From the sequence record MN850609.1: a DNA stretch of 64,000 nucleotides. One strand, 5' to 3'. Origin of the DNA: Escherichia phage dhaeg. Shown here one piece after another: positions 34,623 to 50,716 of the stretch (position 1 is the first letter of the stretch; each line of letters opens with the position of its first letter). The position numbers and the translations under genes are program-made. The notes below the pieces were generated by a model. The model saw only the letters and a list, made by a program, of their open reading frames with translations, had not been told where the DNA came from and did not search any database.

Positions 34623-35177
34623 ATGAGTTTATATGATAACCTTATATCAAATATTGATTGGTTTAAAAATAGTGGTCTTTCCCATGAAACCAATTCAGTT
34701 CTTTATAGAATTCGCCAAGACCTAGGCTATTCAAACGATTTCTTAAGCAGAACATCTAGCCGTGGCGATACTACCAAATTACCTTTTATTTTTGCTTTAG
34801 CTGAAGACCTTTCTTTTGAAGATGCTTTGGAAATTATTGACGTAAATCTGGCTATTCAACGAGTGGAATTCGCTGGACTACGTTATTCAGTATATTCTTT
34901 AAATGAGAGCAATGATTGCGTGCTTCTTAATATGGCAGACGATGATTACCATTTAGTATGCTATGTGGCTTTAGAAAATGGTGATGTATTTGGAATGGTC
35001 GACCGCCGCCCAACTTATACTGATATTAAAAATTATGATAAAGATGAGCTTCTTGATTTGGCGGCTGAGTACACATTAGAGAGTCGTAAACGGAAACGTA
35101 AGCTTAATCGTTTTATTGCTGAATGTCGTGAATATGCTAAAGGGGTTCAAAATGCGAACGTTATATCTGCCAAGTAA
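34623..35177 (+). CDS. Hypothetical protein
   Basis: 184 aa ORF with RBS GGAGGAGAGGAG. The hairpin at 34582-34599 precedes it. Confidence 0.45.
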   Translation: MSLYDNLISNIDWFKNSGLSHETNSVLYRIRQDLGYSNDFLSRTSSRGDTTKLPFIFALAEDLSFEDALEIIDVNLAIQRVEFAGLRYSVYSLNESNDCVLLNMADDDYHLVCYVALENGDVFGMVDRRPTYTDIKNYDKDELLDLAAEYTLESRKRKRKLNRFIAECREYAKGVQNANVISAK

Positions 35178-35511
35178 ACCAGAAAAATTTGTATACGCAG
35201 ACAAGATTGATAAAGACCTTATGCCTCCATTTGGGGCTCTGTCCATGTGCATCGTTGGAATTATAATGATGGTTGTTTGTGGAGATATGAATATCATCAG
35301 TGTTGGAGTCGCCTGGACGCTAGTAATTACAGCTCCTTTTATTACAGTCCTGTGTATGGTATTGATAAATGTGTGGCATCAAAATCATATGAATAAAGGA
35401 TATCGTGGGCGAGTTAAAGAGTGGGAACAAAAATGTGTTTCCCTACAAGAAGAGCACAAAATTAAATGTGCCGAAGAATTTATTAAGGAGGTTCGTAATG
35501 GAACGGCCTAA
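35152..35511 (+). CDS. Membrane protein, paralogue family with C-terminal FIKE motif
   Basis: 119 aa from MRTLYL. Two predicted TM helices. C-terminus ..EEFIKEVRNGTA. Confidence 0.5.
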   Translation: MRTLYLPSKPEKFVYADKIDKDLMPPFGALSMCIVGIIMMVVCGDMNIISVGVAWTLVITAPFITVLCMVLINVWHQNHMNKGYRGRVKEWEQKCVSLQEEHKIKCAEEFIKEVRNGTA

Positions 35512-35851
35512 TCTTGCATCACATGTTTATCAATTGGCTGAATATGATATTGGTGCCAATTTATTATTAGGGATTGCCACCGGTATGCTTGGCGGCTTGG
35601 TTGGTCTGGTAATGACCACGGTTATGGCTGCAATCGAGGGAGTCATGCCCATTGAGATGGGTTTCTATATGATAATCGCTCCGGCTGTCGTGGCTTATTT
35701 TATCCCTCTAGTGTATGATATTTGCCATACAAATGCTTTGAATGCTCCCATCCGTAAGAGATATGCTTTAGAGATGGCTAATTATAATGAGTATGTAAAA
35801 CAAACCAAACGTAATGACCTTGAAACCTTTATTAAGGAATGTAAATCATGA
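35498..35851 (+). CDS. Membrane protein, paralogue family with C-terminal FIKEC motif
   Basis: 117 aa from MERPNL with RBS AAGGAGG. Multiple TM helices. C-terminus ..ETFIKECKS. Confidence 0.5.
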   Translation: MERPNLASHVYQLAEYDIGANLLLGIATGMLGGLVGLVMTTVMAAIEGVMPIEMGFYMIIAPAVVAYFIPLVYDICHTNALNAPIRKRYALEMANYNEYVKQTKRNDLETFIKECKS

Positions 35852-36138
35852 ATAAAATTGAAATTGAAATCCCTGAATACAACGACGAGAAATCTGCAGA
35901 AAAAGCTATCTATGCTCTTCTGAATAAAGTAGATATCATCGAATCCAAATGTGAAGCTATTGCCGATAAGTACGGTATTCAATTCGGAACAGGTGATTAT
36001 GGCTCAGGACGTACATACTATCCGGTCGGTTATGAATGCTCCCAGTGGTTTAAAGATGAAATTGAAAACAATGGCGGTGAAGTTGAAAATGGCGTCGTTA
36101 CAGTTGGTGCCTGGGTCTCCTCTTCGGCAATGTGCTAA
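35848..36138 (+). CDS. Small protein, member 1 of the tandem W-x-S-S-S-x-x-C tail family
   Basis: 96 aa. C-terminus GAWVSSSAMC. Confidence 0.5.
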   Translation: MNKIEIEIPEYNDEKSAEKAIYALLNKVDIIESKCEAIADKYGIQFGTGDYGSGRTYYPVGYECSQWFKDEIENNGGEVENGVVTVGAWVSSSAMC

Positions 36139-36147
36139 GGAAAAGCT

Positions 36148-36429
36148 ATGATGAATGATAATCATAACCATCCAGAGCTTCTGGCCGCAGTAAAAGAAAT
36201 TCATGAAGCTATTCGTCGTGCCGAGGAAATTGCAGATAAATATGAGACTCATTTTAATATATACCCTGCTCGCGGTATGGGCGGTGACTATTATTCTCCT
36301 GGCGCCTTGAAAGCTGACCTTGCCCATTGGGAAGAAGATGGTCATCCTGAATGGGCTATTGTTAATACTCATGACTATACAACTGACCTCGCAACTGGCG
36401 GTTGGGTGTCCTCTTCTTCTGAATGTTAA
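36148..36429 (+). CDS. Small protein, member 2 of the tandem family
   Basis: 93 aa. C-terminus GGWVSSSSEC. Shares the ADKY(G/E) helix with member 1. Confidence 0.5.
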   Translation: MMNDNHNHPELLAAVKEIHEAIRRAEEIADKYETHFNIYPARGMGGDYYSPGALKADLAHWEEDGHPEWAIVNTHDYTTDLATGGWVSSSSEC

Positions 36430-36438
36430 GGAAATATT

Positions 36439-36636
36439 ATGTCTCGTGAATTAGATTGTGCAATCCGAACTGCCGCGGCGGCAATTGAAAACGTTATTCA
36501 AATTTGTAAAGAAGAACGCGAAGAAGCTGATATCTATATTGATGGTGCTCGTGACTTAGAACGACATATAACGCTTTATAACGGTTGTATTACTATTAGT
36601 GGTACCTCTTGGGTGTCCTCTTCTTACGAATGCTAA
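36439..36636 (+). CDS. Small protein, member 3 of the tandem family
   Basis: 65 aa. C-terminus TSWVSSSYEC. Confidence 0.5.
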   Translation: MSRELDCAIRTAAAAIENVIQICKEEREEADIYIDGARDLERHITLYNGCITISGTSWVSSSYEC

Positions 36637-36645
36637 GGTAATAAA

Positions 36646-36858
36646 ATGACTATTGATGAAATTGAAAAACAAATCCGTGAATTAGTACGTAAAGGCCAGT
36701 CCGTGGCTGATGAAACAGGTGAAGAATTTTATGTTTCTGGACGCGGTCAATACATTTCTCCAAAGAATCCAGAATATGATGATTACGAATGGGTCCGTGA
36801 TGACTACGGTATCCCAGAAGGTGAAGGTTTCTGGTTTAGCTCCTCTATGTCTTGCTAA
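36646..36858 (+). CDS. Small protein, member 4 of the tandem family
   Basis: 70 aa. C-terminus GFWFSSSMSC. Confidence 0.5.
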   Translation: MTIDEIEKQIRELVRKGQSVADETGEEFYVSGRGQYISPKNPEYDDYEWVRDDYGIPEGEGFWFSSSMSC

Positions 36859-36868
36859 GGAATAAAAA

Positions 36869-37093
36869 ATGTCTAATATTAATGAATTGGAAAAAGCAGC
36901 TCTTGAACTGGCTGCGCTGTATAAGAAAGTAAAAGATATGGCTTCTGCCCAGGATTTTGGTGTTGAGCTAGATGATTACGACGGTGAAGTTCGTCTTGAA
37001 GATTGGCTGAATAGCTCTTGTTATGGTGAAGAAGCTGGTCGTACCTTCGTTGCTCGCTCCGATGGTAAAATCTGGTACCCGAGCTCATGCTAA
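36869..37093 (+). CDS. Small protein, member 5 of the tandem family
   Basis: 74 aa. C-terminus KIWYPSSC. Confidence 0.5.
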   Translation: MSNINELEKAALELAALYKKVKDMASAQDFGVELDDYDGEVRLEDWLNSSCYGEEAGRTFVARSDGKIWYPSSC

Positions 37094-37314
37094 AATTAAA
37101 GAAAAGATACATTCGTAAAATAAATGGTCTTCGCGATTATGCCAAAGGTTGGCCGTTAAGTATTATTATGGCTGATAGACACCCACGTTATAATACCGAG
37201 TTGACCTATTATAAAAAGTATGATTCATATTGTCGGTCTAAAGCCGGTCGTTTAGATGGTTCTTATGAAGAATACTTTGGTAAAAAACCTACTCGTATTT
37301 CGTTAGGAAAATAA
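37087..37314 (+). CDS. Small basic protein
   Basis: 75 aa and Arg/Lys-rich. Overlap-coupled to the upstream gene. Confidence 0.4.
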   Translation: MLKLKKRYIRKINGLRDYAKGWPLSIIMADRHPRYNTELTYYKKYDSYCRSKAGRLDGSYEEYFGKKPTRISLGK

Positions 37315-37344
37315 TTTAGCCACACGGATGTGGTAGGAGGACTT

Positions 37345-37674
37345 ATGCACAAAGATTCAGTATTCAAATATCTTTTGAAAACAGATAAAGAATTCTATAT
37401 GAATGGGCAAGCTTTCTTGTTCGTCCGTGGTAAACGTGAGATGTTTTATAAATGCGACCTCTCAATGCACCATCATATGTATCATACCCACGGCGAGCCT
37501 ATACTAGGGTTCTCTGGTGACGAGACTAGACACATAGCTATGTACTATGACCATTTTAAGCTCAATGATTGTGGTGACAACGCTTTGGTCTGGAACCCAT
37601 CTTGGAGACGTTGGGATACAGTAGACAGCGATAAATTATTTTTAGAATATTGCAGAAGTGATGTACAACTCTAA
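37345..37674 (+). CDS. His-rich hypothetical protein
   Basis: About 109 aa from MHKDS with RBS GGAGGA. Contains HHHMYHTHGEP. Confidence 0.45.
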   Translation: MHKDSVFKYLLKTDKEFYMNGQAFLFVRGKREMFYKCDLSMHHHMYHTHGEPILGFSGDETRHIAMYYDHFKLNDCGDNALVWNPSWRRWDTVDSDKLFLEYCRSDVQL

Positions 37675-37718
37675 AAACTTGTGTTACTATTACCTTACAC
37701 AAACATGAGGGGAACATT

Positions 37719-37958
37719 ATGTGGTATTATTCTCCACTGTCTGATAAGTCTGATGAGCCGGTACGCATTAGTCGTGCCAAGTTTAAAAAGATTTATGGCT
37801 TTGCCTATAAGAAGTCTGATTACGGTGTTCGTTTTGAAGATGCCCACTGTATCAACGACCCTTATGCAGAAGAAATCTCTAATGAGATAATTCCTATCAT
37901 TAAGAATAATTCTGATGATATGTGGGAATTGCATAACGATTACGTTGCTGAAATTTAA
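37719..37958 (+). CDS. Hypothetical protein
   Basis: 79 aa with an RBS GAGGGGAA upstream. Confidence 0.45.
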   Translation: MWYYSPLSDKSDEPVRISRAKFKKIYGFAYKKSDYGVRFEDAHCINDPYAEEISNEIIPIIKNNSDDMWELHNDYVAEI

Positions 37959-37980
37959 GTTTACTCTGAGGAAAATATTA

Positions 37981-38148
37981 TGTATAATGTTCTTATTGTT
38001 TTTGTTACTCACCCACAAGGTGGCGTAAGGCAGAATACTTCCCAAGTGGTCCAATTTTCTTCACTAGAGGCTGCTAATCTAGCCGCAACGCGTATTGAAG
38101 CAAAAAAATCTGAACTGGGTAAATATGAAGTAACTCGTCTTTATTAAT
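37981..38148 (+). CDS. Small hypothetical protein
   Basis: 55 aa ORF (MYNVLIVFVTHPQGG...), below the ORF-track length cutoff. RBS GAGGAAAATATTATG identical to the next gene's. Confidence 0.35.
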
Positions 38149-38160
38149 GAGGAAAATATT

Positions 38161-39120
38161 ATGATGCTAGTTATTGGTTCTCGTGCACTGCACCACGCTG
38201 GTCTGATTGAAAGTAAGTATATCGAAAATTCTGATTGGGATTTTATTGCCGACCAGGGGTCATGGAATAATTTTAAAGCACAGATGTTTGGCGCCCATGT
38301 ACACGTAGACAACCCTGACGTCCAGGCTTTTAAATGCATGCACAACGGTAAAGAAACCTATTTTGAAGCTTATATCGTCCGCGCCTTGACTAACGTACGT
38401 GAAATTACCGGCGAACTCCAAGATGAGGATTTCACCTCAAGCTACCGCCTTCTGAATTATGCTAAAACACATATTAAGAAAGATCGGATGACGGGTTTCT
38501 ATTGGGCCACGCCTGATATCTGTCTGGCCATCAAAATGAGCCATCGTTATTTGAAGAACAACCCTTTCTTTTTGAAGACGATGTCCCACATCAAATACCT
38601 TCGTAATAAAGGTGTAACCTTGAATGAAGAGCTCCAAGAAATCATGCTGCAACGTCAGAAAGAAACGTTGAGCTATTCTCATCCTAAATTAGATGTAAAC
38701 AAATCATCGTTCTTTAATGATACCATCTATACATTAGACCACGACTCTATTCATGAAGCTGTGGCATTAGCCGGACGCCCAGCGTATACCTTTTATATGA
38801 AAGATGGTTCTGAAGTCATGACCTCTCGTGAGAAGTTTGAAGCTTTGCCTGAAGCTATTAAACTGGCAGGGGTTTATGAAGAAGCATGTGTACTTGCTCT
38901 AGAGCGTTCGCAGGTTCCTAATGACTTTAATATCCCAGCAGCCACAAGTTTCTATATGGCTCTTGAGAAAGTGTGCACCTCAATCACTTCAGGTTGGTTC
39001 CGTGAGTATGCCTGGGAAAACTACCAAGCTGTAGTGAATATGTATAGGACCCTAGGTGAAAGTGACTACATCAACCGGTTTAAGCGTAATCAACATTTAA
39101 TTCGTCCTTTCGAAAAATAA
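38161..39120 (+). CDS. Hypothetical protein (319 aa)
   Basis: Long clean ORF with RBS GAGGAAAATATTATG. No motif recognised. Confidence 0.5.
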   Translation: MMLVIGSRALHHAGLIESKYIENSDWDFIADQGSWNNFKAQMFGAHVHVDNPDVQAFKCMHNGKETYFEAYIVRALTNVREITGELQDEDFTSSYRLLNYAKTHIKKDRMTGFYWATPDICLAIKMSHRYLKNNPFFLKTMSHIKYLRNKGVTLNEELQEIMLQRQKETLSYSHPKLDVNKSSFFNDTIYTLDHDSIHEAVALAGRPAYTFYMKDGSEVMTSREKFEALPEAIKLAGVYEEACVLALERSQVPNDFNIPAATSFYMALEKVCTSITSGWFREYAWENYQAVVNMYRTLGESDYINRFKRNQHLIRPFEK

Positions 39121-49693: not shown

Positions 49694-50254
49694 ATGATTA
49701 TTGAAACATCTGGGCTGTTTGGTGACCTGACTGCTGAAGTAGTTGATAATGCAATTGTGCTTTCACAAGAAGACGATAAAATCGTACTGACTATCCAAGA
49801 TATCAAGCCGCTTTATGATTTAAAGGTTTTGGACAAACACGAATATCTTAATGGCAGATTTAGAGGTGTATTTGATATTAATGATGGTTTATGGGCCCAG
49901 ATTTATAACCATGACAAAGGGTTTAATTTGGAAACAGACGGAGAATGTCTGAGCATTAGCGATTCTAGTAATTTCTTTAAATGTATTTTTAAACTGTTCC
50001 AGGAAGAATGCAAGCCGGAAGTTGAATGGAAAGTCCCTGGTCAAGATGCCGTAATTCGTTCTAGTGAAACATTTGAAGGTGATGAAGAAGAAATGGATTA
50101 TGATACCGAACTAACCGTGTATCAACACCAGGGCCGTGATTTGCTATCCTTGGTCCAAAGACACGACGGTGAAAATGAAGTTGTATTTACGAAGGACGAG
50201 CTAAAAGTTTTAGTATCTTATCTGAACTCTGTTATCCCAACTATGAACTCTTAA
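49694..50254 (+). CDS. Hypothetical acidic protein
   Basis: 186 aa with RBS GAGGAACGGAAAATG. Confidence 0.45.
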   Translation: MIIETSGLFGDLTAEVVDNAIVLSQEDDKIVLTIQDIKPLYDLKVLDKHEYLNGRFRGVFDINDGLWAQIYNHDKGFNLETDGECLSISDSSNFFKCIFKLFQEECKPEVEWKVPGQDAVIRSSETFEGDEEEMDYDTELTVYQHQGRDLLSLVQRHDGENEVVFTKDELKVLVSYLNSVIPTMNS

Positions 50255-50263
50255 GGAAATATT

Positions 50264-50716
50264 ATGATTATCAATGAAAACTCTTGGCATGTTAAATTAC
50301 ATGACCGCTTTTATGCCAGTTATTCGCGTCCGCGATCATTATGCGCATACTTCTGGAAAATGGTTTGGGTGTGCTTTATGTGTTCTGTGCTTGCAGGTAG
50401 TACTATTTTCGGCTTAACTGTTGCAGGTGCCGGTATATTGGAGCAGTTCTTTGTATTGAGTACTCCTGTTGGTTTAAGTTTAGGTTTTATTTTAGGACTG
50501 ATTATAATAGCCCTTATTCTAGCGGTAGCTTTTGGTTTGGTGTATGGTCTAATGAATTTATGGGCCCGGTACGATTTACGTAAAGAAGAAAAAGAATGGG
50601 AACGCATTAAAGCTAAACGTGAAGGAAAGGAAATTAAAGAAAATGTTTTCATTCAATATATTAAAGCTCGTAAATCTAAGATGTGTCCGGTAATCCATTT
50701 TGAGGCTAAGAAATGA
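50264..50716 (+). CDS. Membrane protein
   Basis: 150 aa with three predicted TM helices. Confidence 0.45.
   Translation: MIINENSWHVKLHDRFYASYSRPRSLCAYFWKMVWVCFMCSVLAGSTIFGLTVAGAGILEQFFVLSTPVGLSLGFILGLIIIALILAVAFGLVYGLMNLWARYDLRKEEKEWERIKAKREGKEIKENVFIQYIKARKSKMCPVIHFEAKK

What the first reader, a model, noticed from the sequence alone, without database searches (positions are those of the whole stretch)
35848..37093. Five tandem small paralogous genes all ending in a W-[VFY]-S-S-S-x-x-Cys tail, with a conserved DNA junction
Five consecutive genes encode proteins of 65, 70, 74, 93 and 96 aa with divergent N-terminal regions. Their last 9-12 residues are nearly invariant (GAWVSSSAMC, GGWVSSSSEC, TSWVSSSYEC, GFWFSSSMSC, KIWYPSSC) and every one ends in a C-terminal Cys immediately before the stop. 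The conservation continues at the DNA level across the stop and into the next RBS (TGGGTGTCCTCTTCTnnnGAATGyTAAGGAAAtatTATG), so each unit behaves as a cassette with a fixed 3' boundary. Two readings are possible. One is a paralogue family whose common C-tail is a recognition, modification or degradation tag, or a C-terminal Cys lipidation or cross-link site. The other is an RNA or DNA-level element overlapping the 3' coding end, such as CCTCTTC pairing with the following Shine-Dalgarno site, or a recombination boundary. I do not recognise this family from T4.
Basis: seen in the sequence. Interest (0 to 1): 0.75.

Follow-up and report, generated by a model that had tools for sequence, protein, structure and literature searches.

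The report
Cys-tailed small proteins plus partner enzyme
The five small genes belong to an old, widespread and unstudied phage family whose invariant C-terminal peptide (Trp-x-Ser-Ser-Ser-x-x-Cys) is conserved as protein, not as RNA or DNA, and which almost always sits just upstream of one uncharacterised, probably nucleotide-transferring enzyme gene, so the two look like a two-part system.

Summary
Five tandem + strand genes (35848-37093; 96, 93, 65, 70 and 74 aa) all end in W-x-[S/P]-S-S-(x-x)-Cys-stop.

It is not a recent duplication or a low-complexity accident. An exhaustive profile search finds 323 clusters of 75-110 aa proteins with the same tail at the true C-terminus: W, one Ser and Cys are invariant, and Cys is the last residue in 135 of 143.

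The constraint is on the protein. All six Ser codons and both Cys codons are used. Synonymous variation in the tail equals the rest of the gene (0.278 vs 0.286, p=0.82). The junction RNAs do not fold better than shuffles. The conserved DNA after the stop is the ordinary TAAGGA Shine-Dalgarno site.

New here: in 37 of 37 small-gene-anchored loci with enough downstream DNA, and 74 of 80 enzyme-anchored loci, the small genes (1-6 copies) lie upstream, same strand, of one ~310 aa gene. In the window this is 38161-39120 (Pfam DUF7277+DUF7275), with a GS...DxD...E nucleotidyltransferase-like motif. No other gene co-occurs. The module is phage-restricted and was not found in the three quarters of T4 searched.

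Best reading: the tail is the peptide through which this enzyme recognises, and probably modifies, the small proteins. That step is inferred, not shown. I found no literature.

The parts
35848..36138 (+). Small acidic tail protein 1 (96 aa, pI 4.3). Tail W89-C96 is encoded at 36112-36135.
   Evidence: PHROG 899 E=3e-23. Family HMM E=3e-28.
36148..36429 (+). Small acidic tail protein 2 (93 aa), the paralogue closest to the family consensus (GMGGDYYSPG hairpin). Tail W86-C93 is encoded at 36403-36426.
   Evidence: AF2 model pLDDT 91.3: helix 9-31, hairpin 35-49, helix 51-63, strand 84-88 (GWVSS); the last residues have lower confidence.
36439..36636 (+). Small tail protein 3 (65 aa), a diverged member that lacks the Gly-rich hairpin. 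Tail W58-C65 is encoded at 36610-36633.
   Evidence: phrog_4882 E=2e-36. Family HMM E=1e-7.
36646..36858 (+). Small tail protein 4 (70 aa). Tail W63-C70 is encoded at 36832-36855 with different Ser codons (AGC TCC TCT).
36869..37093 (+). Small tail protein 5 (74 aa), the 'double-unit' subtype. The internal unit W46-C51 (DWLNSSC) lies at 37004-37021 and the terminal unit W69-C74 (IWYPSSC) at 37073-37090.
   Evidence: The same subtype occurs in other T4-like lineages and in Phapecoctavirus tuntematon (WQSSSC...WHSSSC).
36136..36150 (+). Junction 1: stop codon overlapping the Shine-Dalgarno site and the next start (TAAGGAAAAGCTATG). Equivalent junctions lie at 36427-36441, 36634-36648 and 36856-36871.
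   Evidence: This is a generic motif in the window; the identical 15-mer of junction 2 recurs at 50252. No RNA structure was found.
38161..39120 (+). Partner gene: a 319 aa protein with DUF7277 (residues 2-101; G6-S7...D25-x-D27...E69, a Pol-beta-type nucleotidyltransferase-like motif) plus DUF7275 (residues 120-305). DUF7275 is rich in invariant residues: K125, H128, R129, K139, R165, H194, D195, H198, E240, E241, E248, R249, K270, R281 and E286.
   Evidence: Pfam E=2e-78 and 1.5e-27. phrog_2141. Conservation. Synteny with the small genes. Two GenBank records call homologues '(putative) nucleotidyltransferase'. Sub-threshold hits to NTase families.
37087..38147 (+). Four intervening small ORFs (75, 114, 79 and 55 aa; phrog_7065, 9796, 3723, 20278). 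They are specific to T4-like phages and are not part of the conserved module. In many other phages the tail genes abut the enzyme gene directly.

Best explanation
The five genes are ancient paralogues of a widespread, uncharacterised family of small (65-110 aa), acidic, cytoplasmic phage proteins. The proteins have a compact helix plus three-stranded-sheet fold and end in an invariant peptide, G-x-W-x-[S/A/P]-S-[S/T]-x-x-Cys-COOH, with a short form W-x-x-S-S-Cys.

The tail is conserved by selection on the protein. The DNA identity across the stop codon is just codon choice plus the normal stop-overlapping Shine-Dalgarno site used for translational coupling.

The family forms a two-gene module with the DUF7277-DUF7275 gene 1 kb downstream (38161-39120). 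Its N-terminal domain carries a Pol-beta-type nucleotidyltransferase-like motif. Its C-terminal domain has an enzyme-like set of invariant His, Asp, Glu, Arg and Lys residues.

Most likely mechanism (inferred, not shown): the flexible W...SS...C unit is the short motif through which this single enzyme recognises the several small proteins. The enzyme probably modifies the motif covalently on a Ser hydroxyl and/or the terminal Cys, for example by nucleotidylylation. In that model the diversified acidic bodies of the paralogues carry different specificities towards host or phage targets early in infection.

Shown: family membership, protein-level constraint, and linkage to the enzyme gene. Inferred: the NTase activity, physical docking of the tail, and any covalent modification.
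For: The tail is a family hallmark. There are 323 clusters at E<=1e-3, and matches run to the very C-terminus. W, Ser(+3) and Cys are invariant in 143 of 143 standard tails, and Cys is the last residue in 135 of 143. Median pI is 4.46, and 85 of 147 members have no other Cys.

The constraint is on the protein. There is no RNA fold and the SD is generic.

The unit behaves as an autonomous motif: 43 internal extra copies against 0.3 expected. The last residues have lower model confidence in an otherwise confident model (pLDDT 91.3).

Linkage is strong. From the small-gene side, 37 of 37 loci with enough downstream DNA have the big gene downstream on the same strand, often within 20-60 bp. From the enzyme side, 74 of 80 loci have 1-5 upstream tail ORFs and no tail ORF on the opposite strand. 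The small family occurs in 29 of 32 enzyme lineages, while no other gene family occurs in more than 6.

The module spans T4-like, Phapecoctavirus, Pseudomonas and jumbo (355-390 kb) phages. It was essentially not found in bacterial genomes: 7 MAG contigs among 185,579 species genomes.

The enzyme motif G-S...D-x-D is present in 120 of 120 homologues, with an invariant or near-invariant downstream Glu. Independent annotators label homologues as nucleotidyltransferase. Sub-threshold Pfam hits fall on DUF6036 NTase (E=0.0049 and 0.25) and the PolyA_pol head domain (E=0.21).
Against: No direct evidence exists of binding or modification.

No profile match of the enzyme to any NTase family reaches significance. 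hhalign against AadA and KNTase gave probability below 1%, and a profile search of PDB sequences found nothing.

W-V-S-S of ORF2 is modelled as a confident beta-strand inside the fold, so part of the tail's conservation may be structural.

One enzyme lineage (L100, L101, L103, L110) and the actinophage homologues have no tail gene nearby.

In the T4-like phages, four unrelated ORFs separate the tail genes from the enzyme gene.
Confidence: 0.5

Rival explanations
1. The tail is an intrinsic element of the small proteins: the last beta-strand plus a Cys used for oligomerisation or metal binding. On this reading the proteins act on their own, for example as acidic nucleic-acid mimics or inhibitors of host proteins. 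Their position next to the DUF7277-DUF7275 gene would then reflect co-regulation or shared inheritance of a gene block, not a direct interaction.
For: W-V-S-S is a confident strand in the AF2 model. The proteins are strongly acidic, with median pI 4.46. Four unrelated ORFs lie between the two components in T4-like phages. One enzyme lineage and the actinophage homologues lack nearby tail genes.
Against: Nothing else is conserved around the pair across 32 lineages. The genes directly abut or overlap in many unrelated phages. The unit is duplicated internally as an autonomous motif. The Cys must be the very last residue in 135 of 143 members, which a purely structural strand does not explain.
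Confidence: 0.2
2. Regulator or antitoxin-like reading. The small proteins inhibit or gate a potentially toxic nucleotidyltransferase by inserting the Ser/Cys tail into its active site, as in the NTase toxin-antitoxin pairs AbiEii/AbiEi, MenT/MenA and MntA/HepT.
Confidence: 0.12
3. RiPP-like or cofactor-like maturation. The small proteins are scaffolds whose invariant C-terminal residues are converted into a cyclic thioether or aminovinyl-Cys-type structure, or into a released small molecule. On this reading the single enzyme activates Ser and processes the terminal Cys.
For: Several tandem precursor-like genes sit next to one enzyme gene. The C-terminus is invariant with a terminal Cys and S/T at -3. 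From my own knowledge, that S-x-x-Cys-COOH spacing is the one used for the AviCys ring of epidermin, and invariant C-termini are typical of peptide-derived cofactors such as PqqA and MftA.
Against: No dehydratase, LanD-type flavoprotein, radical-SAM enzyme, YcaO, protease or exporter is conserved with the pair. The precursors are folded domains. The short form W-x-x-S-S-C leaves no ring spacing. No chemistry is demonstrated.
Confidence: 0.1
4. One reading: the conservation is an RNA or DNA element overlapping the 3' coding end. That element would be SD-sequestering pairing, or a cassette or recombination boundary.
For: The 14-nt identity TGGGTnTCCTCTTC is shared by junctions 1-3, followed by TAAGGAAA.
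Against: Junctions 4 and 5 encode the same peptide with other codons. All six Ser codons and both Cys codons are used across 171 genes. Synonymous diversity in the tail is 0.278 against 0.286 in the rest of the gene, p=0.82. Four of the five junction folds are weaker than the shuffle mean and none is significantly more stable. The SD motif is generic in the window.
Confidence: 0.02
5. The shared tail reflects only recent tandem duplication of one gene in this phage.
For: The genes are adjacent and of similar size.
Against: The paralogues are only 24-29% identical. All five subtypes have orthologues in other T4-like lineages, in a different order. The family has 323 clusters at 50% identity across unrelated phages.
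Confidence: 0.01

Closest known systems
PHROG 899 / phrog_4882 (small proteins) and Pfam DUF7277 + DUF7275 / phrog_2141 (partner)
   Same: These are the actual families. Four of the five small proteins match PHROG 899 and ORF3 matches phrog_4882. The partner matches both DUFs far above the Pfam cut-offs.
   Different: All are catalogued only as 'unknown function'. I found no description of the C-terminal motif, the tandem arrays or the pairing of the two families.
GlnD / PII (uridylyltransferase with HD domain acting on a small signalling protein) and GlnE
   Same: From my own knowledge, a Pol-beta-type nucleotidyltransferase joined to a second catalytic domain reversibly nucleotidylylates a hydroxyl on a flexible segment of a small protein. 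That is the closest 'works like' model for an NTase-like enzyme paired with small proteins that carry an exposed Ser-rich tail.
   Different: No sequence or fold relationship was detected. The acceptor there is a Tyr in the T-loop of a trimeric ferredoxin-like protein. Here the candidate site is a C-terminal Ser/Cys peptide, there are several paralogous substrates, and the system was found only in phages.
NTase toxin-antitoxin pairs (MntA/HepT, AbiEii/AbiEi, MenT/MenA)
   Same: Both are two-gene operons in which a small protein and a minimal NTase act on each other. MntA poly-AMPylates its partner protein (PMC7641770, abstract).
   Different: Those pairs are bacterial, have a 1:1 gene ratio and appear in defence catalogues. 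This module was found only in phages, has 1-6 small genes, and gave no PADLOC or NCBIfam match.
RiPP or peptide-derived-cofactor precursors (prochlorosin ProcA arrays with one ProcM; epidermin AviCys; MftA; PqqA)
   Same: Many tandem small precursor genes are served by one enzyme. The critical residues sit at the extreme C-terminus, and the S-x-x-Cys-COOH spacing is the same. This comparison rests on my own knowledge.
   Different: No known RiPP enzyme class is present in the module. The tail here is invariant, whereas lanthipeptide cores are hypervariable. The bodies are folded acidic domains.
T-even internal-protein (IP) cassettes with a shared capsid-targeting sequence
   Same: Both are variable small genes in the same general region of T-even genomes that share one short conserved terminal peptide. 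This comparison rests on my own knowledge.
   Different: The IP signal is N-terminal and is cleaved at L/I-x-E. Here the conserved peptide is C-terminal and the N-termini show no CTS-like consensus. T4 has IPs, but this family was not found in the parts of T4 searched.
QatB/QatC and CdnD/Cap9 (terminus of a small protein inserted into a nucleotide-using enzyme)
   Same: This is a precedent for a protein terminus serving as the substrate of an ATP-using enzyme encoded next to it (PMC13376578).
   Different: Those enzymes are PP-loop (QueC-like), they act on the N-terminus, and they belong to bacterial defence systems.

Membership tests
PHROG 899 / tail-protein family defined here | Full-length profile match (N-terminal helix ..AExIADxxG..F, then a beta hairpin) | tested here: met
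   ORF1, 2, 4 and 5 hit PHROG 899 at E=3e-23 to 4e-10. ORF3 hits phrog_4882. All five hit the family HMM.
PHROG 899 / tail-protein family defined here | C-terminal W-x-[SAP]-S-[ST]-x-x-C (or W-x-x-S-S-C) ending at the stop codon | tested here: met
   All five ORFs have it.
Two-gene module (tail proteins + DUF7277-DUF7275) | A DUF7277+DUF7275 gene downstream on the same strand | tested here: met
   Window 38161-39120, Pfam E=2e-78 and 1.5e-27.
Pol-beta-type nucleotidyltransferase superfamily (partner enzyme) | hG[GS] ... [DE]h[DE]h ... a third carboxylate on a following strand | tested here: met
   G6-S7...D25-W-D27...E69. The G[S]..DxD motif is present in 120 of 120 homologues. This is a motif-level match only.
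Pol-beta-type nucleotidyltransferase superfamily (partner enzyme) | Significant profile or fold match to a known NTase family | tested here: inconclusive
   Only sub-threshold hits: DUF6036 at E=0.0049 and 0.25, PolyA_pol head at E=0.21. hhalign against AadA and KNTase was not significant. The PDB profile search found nothing.
Lanthipeptide / AviCys-type RiPP | A dehydratase or cyclase (LanB/LanC/LanM/LanKC) or a LanD flavoprotein encoded with the precursors | tested here: not met
   No gene family other than the DUF7277-DUF7275 gene co-occurs in more than 6 of 32 lineages. The enzyme gave no significant Pfam hit to these families.
Type II / type VII toxin-antitoxin module | Present in bacterial or plasmid genomes as a 1:1 pair, with recognisable toxin or antitoxin families | tested here: not met
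Cis-acting RNA/DNA element at the gene junction | Excess conservation of synonymous sites and/or a stable conserved structure | tested here: not met
   p=0.82; z from -1.08 to +1.42.
T4 internal proteins (CTS cassette) | N-terminal capsid-targeting sequence with an L/I-x-E cleavage site shared by the cassette genes | tested here: not met
   The N-termini of the five proteins share no such consensus. The conserved peptide is C-terminal.
GlnD/PII-type protein nucleotidylylation | Demonstrated transfer of NMP to the small protein | not testable with these tools
   This needs biochemistry or mass spectrometry.

The most novel reading that the evidence does not exclude
Large virulent phages of Proteobacteria carry a previously unrecognised protein-tail modification system. 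A dedicated two-domain enzyme (an NTase-like DUF7277 plus a His/Asp-rich DUF7275) would act on the invariant W-x-S-S-S-x-x-Cys-COOH unit displayed by a set of diversified small acidic carrier proteins. The product would be a new covalent structure: O-nucleotidylyl-Ser, a Ser-Cys thioether or decarboxylated Cys, or a released tail-derived small molecule. The phage would use it for host takeover or counter-defence.
Probability: 0.25. Interest if true: 0.9.

Novelty: categorically new. Interest (0 to 1): 0.72.

Why it matters
The enzyme family is found in 733 of about 50,700 GenBank phage records and in at least 2,809 protein clusters. These include T4-like phages outside Tequatrovirus, Phapecoctavirus, and Acinetobacter, Aeromonas, Pseudomonas and jumbo phages. 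Both the enzyme and the tail proteins are annotated only as hypothetical or DUF.

Neither family was found in the parts of T4 searched, which probably explains why the module escaped classical genetics.

Recognising that the two families form one module, with a sharply defined 8-residue C-terminal motif, turns two anonymous families into a testable system. The candidate substrate site is defined (Ser-Ser/Cys). The candidate catalytic residues are defined (D25/D27/E69 and the His/Asp cluster). Tractable hosts exist: dhabil infects E. coli K-12 MG1655.

If the tail is modified, this would be a new phage post-translational chemistry and probably a new host-takeover or anti-defence mechanism. If it is not, the motif is still a useful marker for annotating several genes per genome in hundreds of therapeutic-candidate phages.

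Tried and rejected
Ideas tested and rejected:
- **RNA or DNA element at the junction.** Rejected by codon usage, synonymous diversity and folding.
- **'Conserved junction' as a cassette boundary.** The post-stop part is the generic TAAGGA SD. The shared pre-stop 14-mer is confined to three paralogues.
- **Recent duplication or low-complexity Ser run.** Rejected.
- **Obligatory disulfide or thiol relay between the tail Cys and the enzyme's near-invariant Cys (KVCTSITSGW).** Not supported. L016, L022 and L115 have Ala or Ser there yet keep tail genes, and L100-type enzymes keep Cys without nearby tail genes. Only the two actinophage enzymes lack both.
- **Functional link to tRNA genes** (the module is near the tRNA cluster here and in Gordonia phage Lozinak). 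tRNA genes lie within the fetched loci in only 8 of 57 loci.
- **A third conserved component.** None found.
- **T4 NrdC.11 'nucleotidyltransferase' as a homologue.** It is unrelated.

Searches that found nothing:
- Known families for the enzyme. The PDB profile search, PADLOC and NCBIfam found nothing. hhalign against my recalled AadA and KNTase sequences was not significant.
- The sub-threshold DUF3715 (pseudo-PARP) hit of the C-domain consensus (E=0.0049, below the cut-off). I noted it but did not rely on it.
- Literature searches for the motif, the DUFs and the PHROGs returned nothing relevant.

- The afdb50 fold library was unavailable.
- The search for related loci with the 126-sequence alignment failed for lack of a conserved block. 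I replaced it with a tighter alignment.
Full report
**Where the window comes from.** The region is 96% identical to Escherichia phages dhabil and CLB_P2 and 94% identical to JS98 and JS10 (genus Dhakavirus, T4-like Tevenvirinae). It lies in the variable early block between the tRNA cluster and nudE/e. In SP18 and dhabil every gene there is annotated 'hypothetical protein'.

**The observation.** Searches confirm five consecutive + strand ORFs of 96, 93, 65, 70 and 74 aa at 35848-37093. They end in GAWVSSSAMC, GGWVSSSSEC, TSWVSSSYEC, GFWFSSSMSC and KIWYPSSC, each followed by TAA. No other ORF in the 64 kb window carries such an end. The proteins are acidic (pI 4.2-4.8).

- The proteins are homologous over their whole length, at 24-29% identity. 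They share an N-terminal helix ending ..AExIADxxG..F, and three of them share a Gly-rich hairpin. Four hit PHROG 899 end to end and ORF3 hits phrog_4882.
- The nucleotide consensus holds only for junctions 2 and 3, and partly for junction 1. Junction 4 encodes Ser-Ser-Ser as AGC TCC TCT. Junction 5 uses CCG AGC TCA and lacks the TAAGGA; the next ORF's ATG overlaps TGC-TAA.

ORF5 contains the unit twice, as DWLNSSC (internal) and IWYPSSC (terminal).

**Is it only a recent duplication?** No. tblastn with ORF2 finds 280 phage records across several T4-like groups.

An exhaustive profile search of 1.84 billion representative proteins finds 323 clusters at E<=1e-3. Nearly all are 75-110 aa, and the match runs to the last residue. 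Among 147 of these:
- 143 have the standard tail.
- W, Ser(+3) and Cys(+7) are invariant. Position +4 is S or T and position +2 is S, A or P.
- Cys is the very last residue in 135 of 143.
- 85 of 147 have no other Cys.
- Median pI is 4.46.

The five subtypes in the window all have orthologues in other T4-like lineages, in a different order. The duplications therefore predate those lineages.

**Protein or nucleic-acid constraint?** The evidence points to the protein.
- Across 171 unique tail-bearing genes, every Ser position uses all six Ser codons (TCN and AGY) and Cys uses both codons.
- Within the five orthologue groups I compared codons at columns where the amino acid is invariant. Mean pairwise codon difference is 0.278 for 23 tail columns and 0.286 for 158 other columns (Mann-Whitney p=0.82).
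- The five junction RNAs have z-scores of +0.47, +1.42, +0.97, +0.69 and -1.08 against dinucleotide shuffles. Four fold less stably than the shuffle mean and none is significantly more stable.
- TAAGG-N5-10-ATG occurs 28 times in the window against 15.3 expected. The 15-mer of junction 2 recurs verbatim at 50252 between unrelated genes.

The post-stop conservation is therefore the usual stop-overlapping Shine-Dalgarno site of tightly packed T4-type operons. The RNA/DNA reading is rejected.

**What the small proteins look like.** With a 126-sequence alignment, AlphaFold2 gives a confident model of ORF2 (pLDDT 91.3, pTM 0.79). It has a helix at 9-31, a beta hairpin at 35-49 that carries the (Y)GMGG.YY motif, a helix at 51-63, an acidic variable segment and a strand at 84-88 (GWVSS). 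The last residues have lower confidence.

The fold has no significant relative:
- Foldseek against PDB finds nothing.
- BFVD returns only uncharacterised phage proteins.
- There is no Pfam, NCBIfam or PADLOC match.

The W...SS...C unit behaves as an autonomous short motif. Of 393 unique family sequences, 42 carry one or two extra internal copies, typically DW-x-x-SSC-YGE. That gives 43 internal units against 0.3 expected from composition-preserving shuffles.

**The key new finding: a partner gene.** I clustered all ORFs around family members fetched from IMG/VR. One gene family of about 300 aa lies downstream of the small genes on the same strand in 37 of 37 loci with enough downstream DNA. 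The stop-to-start distance is often only 20-60 bp, and in some loci the genes overlap.

In the window this gene is 38161-39120 (319 aa). It matches Pfam DUF7277 (residues 2-101) and DUF7275 (residues 120-305), and phrog_2141.

Anchoring on the enzyme instead gives the same picture:
- 74 of 80 loci have 1-5 upstream, same-strand ORFs with the tail, and no tail ORF on the opposite strand.
- One further locus has a variant tail, WESSESSEC.
- One lineage (L100, L101, L103, L110) lacks tail genes nearby.

The enzyme sequences fall into 32 lineages at 60% identity. The small family accompanies 29 of them, and no other gene family accompanies more than 6. This is therefore a two-component module.

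The module occurs on T4-like (165-177 kb), 45-150 kb and jumbo (355-390 kb) contigs. It is present in Phapecoctavirus tuntematon and Pseudomonas phage vB_PpS_SYP. The enzyme is found in 733 GenBank phage records and at least 2,809 clusters at 90% identity.

A scan of one genome per 185,579 bacterial and archaeal species found only 7 loci. All were MAG contigs of phage-like size, and several carried tail genes. On this evidence the module is phage-restricted.

Neither family was found in T4 at 1-78,000 or 120,001-168,903. T4's NrdC.11 'nucleotidyltransferase' is unrelated. The unsearched 78-120 kb is the late structural block.

Actinophage homologues (Streptomyces and Gordonia phages) have a truncated DUF7277 and no tail genes nearby.

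**What the partner may be.** All 120 homologues inspected begin with a hydrophobic strand followed by G-S, then 8-25 residues later D-x-D. An invariant or near-invariant Glu sits on a later strand. This is the signature of Pol-beta-type nucleotidyltransferases, which I identify from my own knowledge of that superfamily.

Supporting but weak evidence:
- Two GenBank annotators call homologues '(putative) nucleotidyltransferase'.
- Sub-threshold Pfam hits fall on DUF6036 'nucleotidyltransferase' (E=0.0049 and 0.25) and the PolyA_pol head domain (E=0.21).

No significant profile match was obtained. The NTase assignment is therefore an inference.

The C-terminal domain has a dense set of invariant polar residues (K125, H128, R129, K139, R165, H194, D195, H198, E240, E241, E248, R249, K270, R281, E286). 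That pattern looks catalytic or ligand-binding rather than merely structural.

**Most likely mechanism.**

Shown:
- The tail is a protein-level hallmark of the family.
- It behaves as an autonomous, duplicable unit.
- It requires a terminal Cys in almost all members.
- The small genes are genetically coupled to one enzyme-like gene across very diverse phages.

Inferred:
- The enzyme recognises the small proteins through this unit.
- It probably modifies a Ser hydroxyl and/or the terminal Cys. Nucleotidylylation is the simplest guess, given the NTase-like motif.
- The diversified acidic bodies of the 1-6 paralogues provide different specificities.

The closest functional analogy is GlnD/PII or MntA/HepT, but none of their defining features could be tested here.

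Rivals are listed with weights in the rival section: an intrinsic structural or metal role with independent function, an inhibitor or antitoxin-like role, and RiPP- or cofactor-like maturation. A strict Cys-Cys partnership with the enzyme's conserved Cys is not supported. A tRNA connection is not general.

**Novelty and verdict.** Both families are catalogued only as unknown (PHROG, DUF). I found no paper mentioning the motif, the DUFs or the PHROGs. Its RNA/DNA reading is refuted.

The finding becomes more interesting than stated, because the tail marks a widespread two-gene phage module, apparently confined to phages, of unknown chemistry. Confidence is high for the anatomy and the linkage, moderate for 'the tail is the enzyme's recognition site', and low for any specific chemistry.

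Noticed in passing
window 36869-37093 (internal unit 37004-37021; terminal unit 37073-37090): ORF5 carries the W-x-x-S-S-C unit twice (DWLNSSC-YGEE... and IWYPSSC). The same double-unit architecture recurs in other T4-like lineages and in Phapecoctavirus tuntematon (WQSSSC...WHSSSC). Family-wide there are 43 internal extra units against 0.3 expected.
   Followed up: yes
window 37087-37314: The next gene (75 aa, phrog_7065) starts at an ATG that overlaps the TGC-TAA end of ORF5 (TCATGCTAA). There is therefore no TAAGGA junction, and this protein is not a family member.
   Followed up: partly
window 50252-50266: This is an exact copy of the junction-2 15-mer TAAGGAAATATTATG between unrelated genes. 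It shows that the stop/SD/start arrangement is generic in this genome.
   Followed up: yes
L123 (Streptomyces phage Wakanda 3351-4097) and L124 (Gordonia phage Lozinak 3309-4100): Actinophage homologues of the partner enzyme keep DUF7275 but only the first ~30 residues of DUF7277. They replace the conserved Cys of the KVCTSITSGW motif by Val or Ile, and they have no tail-bearing small genes nearby. In Lozinak the gene lies beside a tRNA cluster. In Wakanda it lies about 3 kb from a polynucleotide-kinase-like ATPase gene.
   Followed up: partly
window 38161-39120, residues ~200-280 of the protein: The consensus of the DUF7275 domain gives a sub-threshold Pfam hit to DUF3715 (E=0.0049, 17.3 bits against a 28.5-bit cut-off). 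From memory, that is the pseudo-PARP domain of TASOR. It is a lead only.
   Followed up: no
L125-L131 (GTDB genome contigs): The only 'bacterial' genomes holding the module are MAG bins (Saccharibacteria, Bacteriovoracales, Chitinophagales, Flavobacteriaceae) with contigs of 6-383 kb. Several carry tail genes. These are probably phage contigs mis-binned into MAGs.
   Followed up: partly
L103 3788-4714 and L065 3748-3987: In L103 the enzyme gene is split into two ORFs and looks like a pseudogene. In L065 (a T4-like contig) the enzyme gene is intact, but the only upstream candidate ends ...VCYSSSTF, which looks like a degraded tail gene.
   Followed up: no
L133 10346-10549 (T4 tk.1): T4 Tk.1 gives a weak hit to the small-protein HMM (E=0.0011 within 12.5 kb, 12.7 bits) but has no W..SS..C tail. 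This is probably only helix similarity.
   Followed up: no
window 35116-35851: Two overlapping ORFs for predicted membrane proteins (131 aa and 148 aa; the second is e.4-like, phrog_2330) lie immediately upstream of the array. The stop of the second overlaps the ATG of ORF1 (ATCATGA).
   Followed up: no
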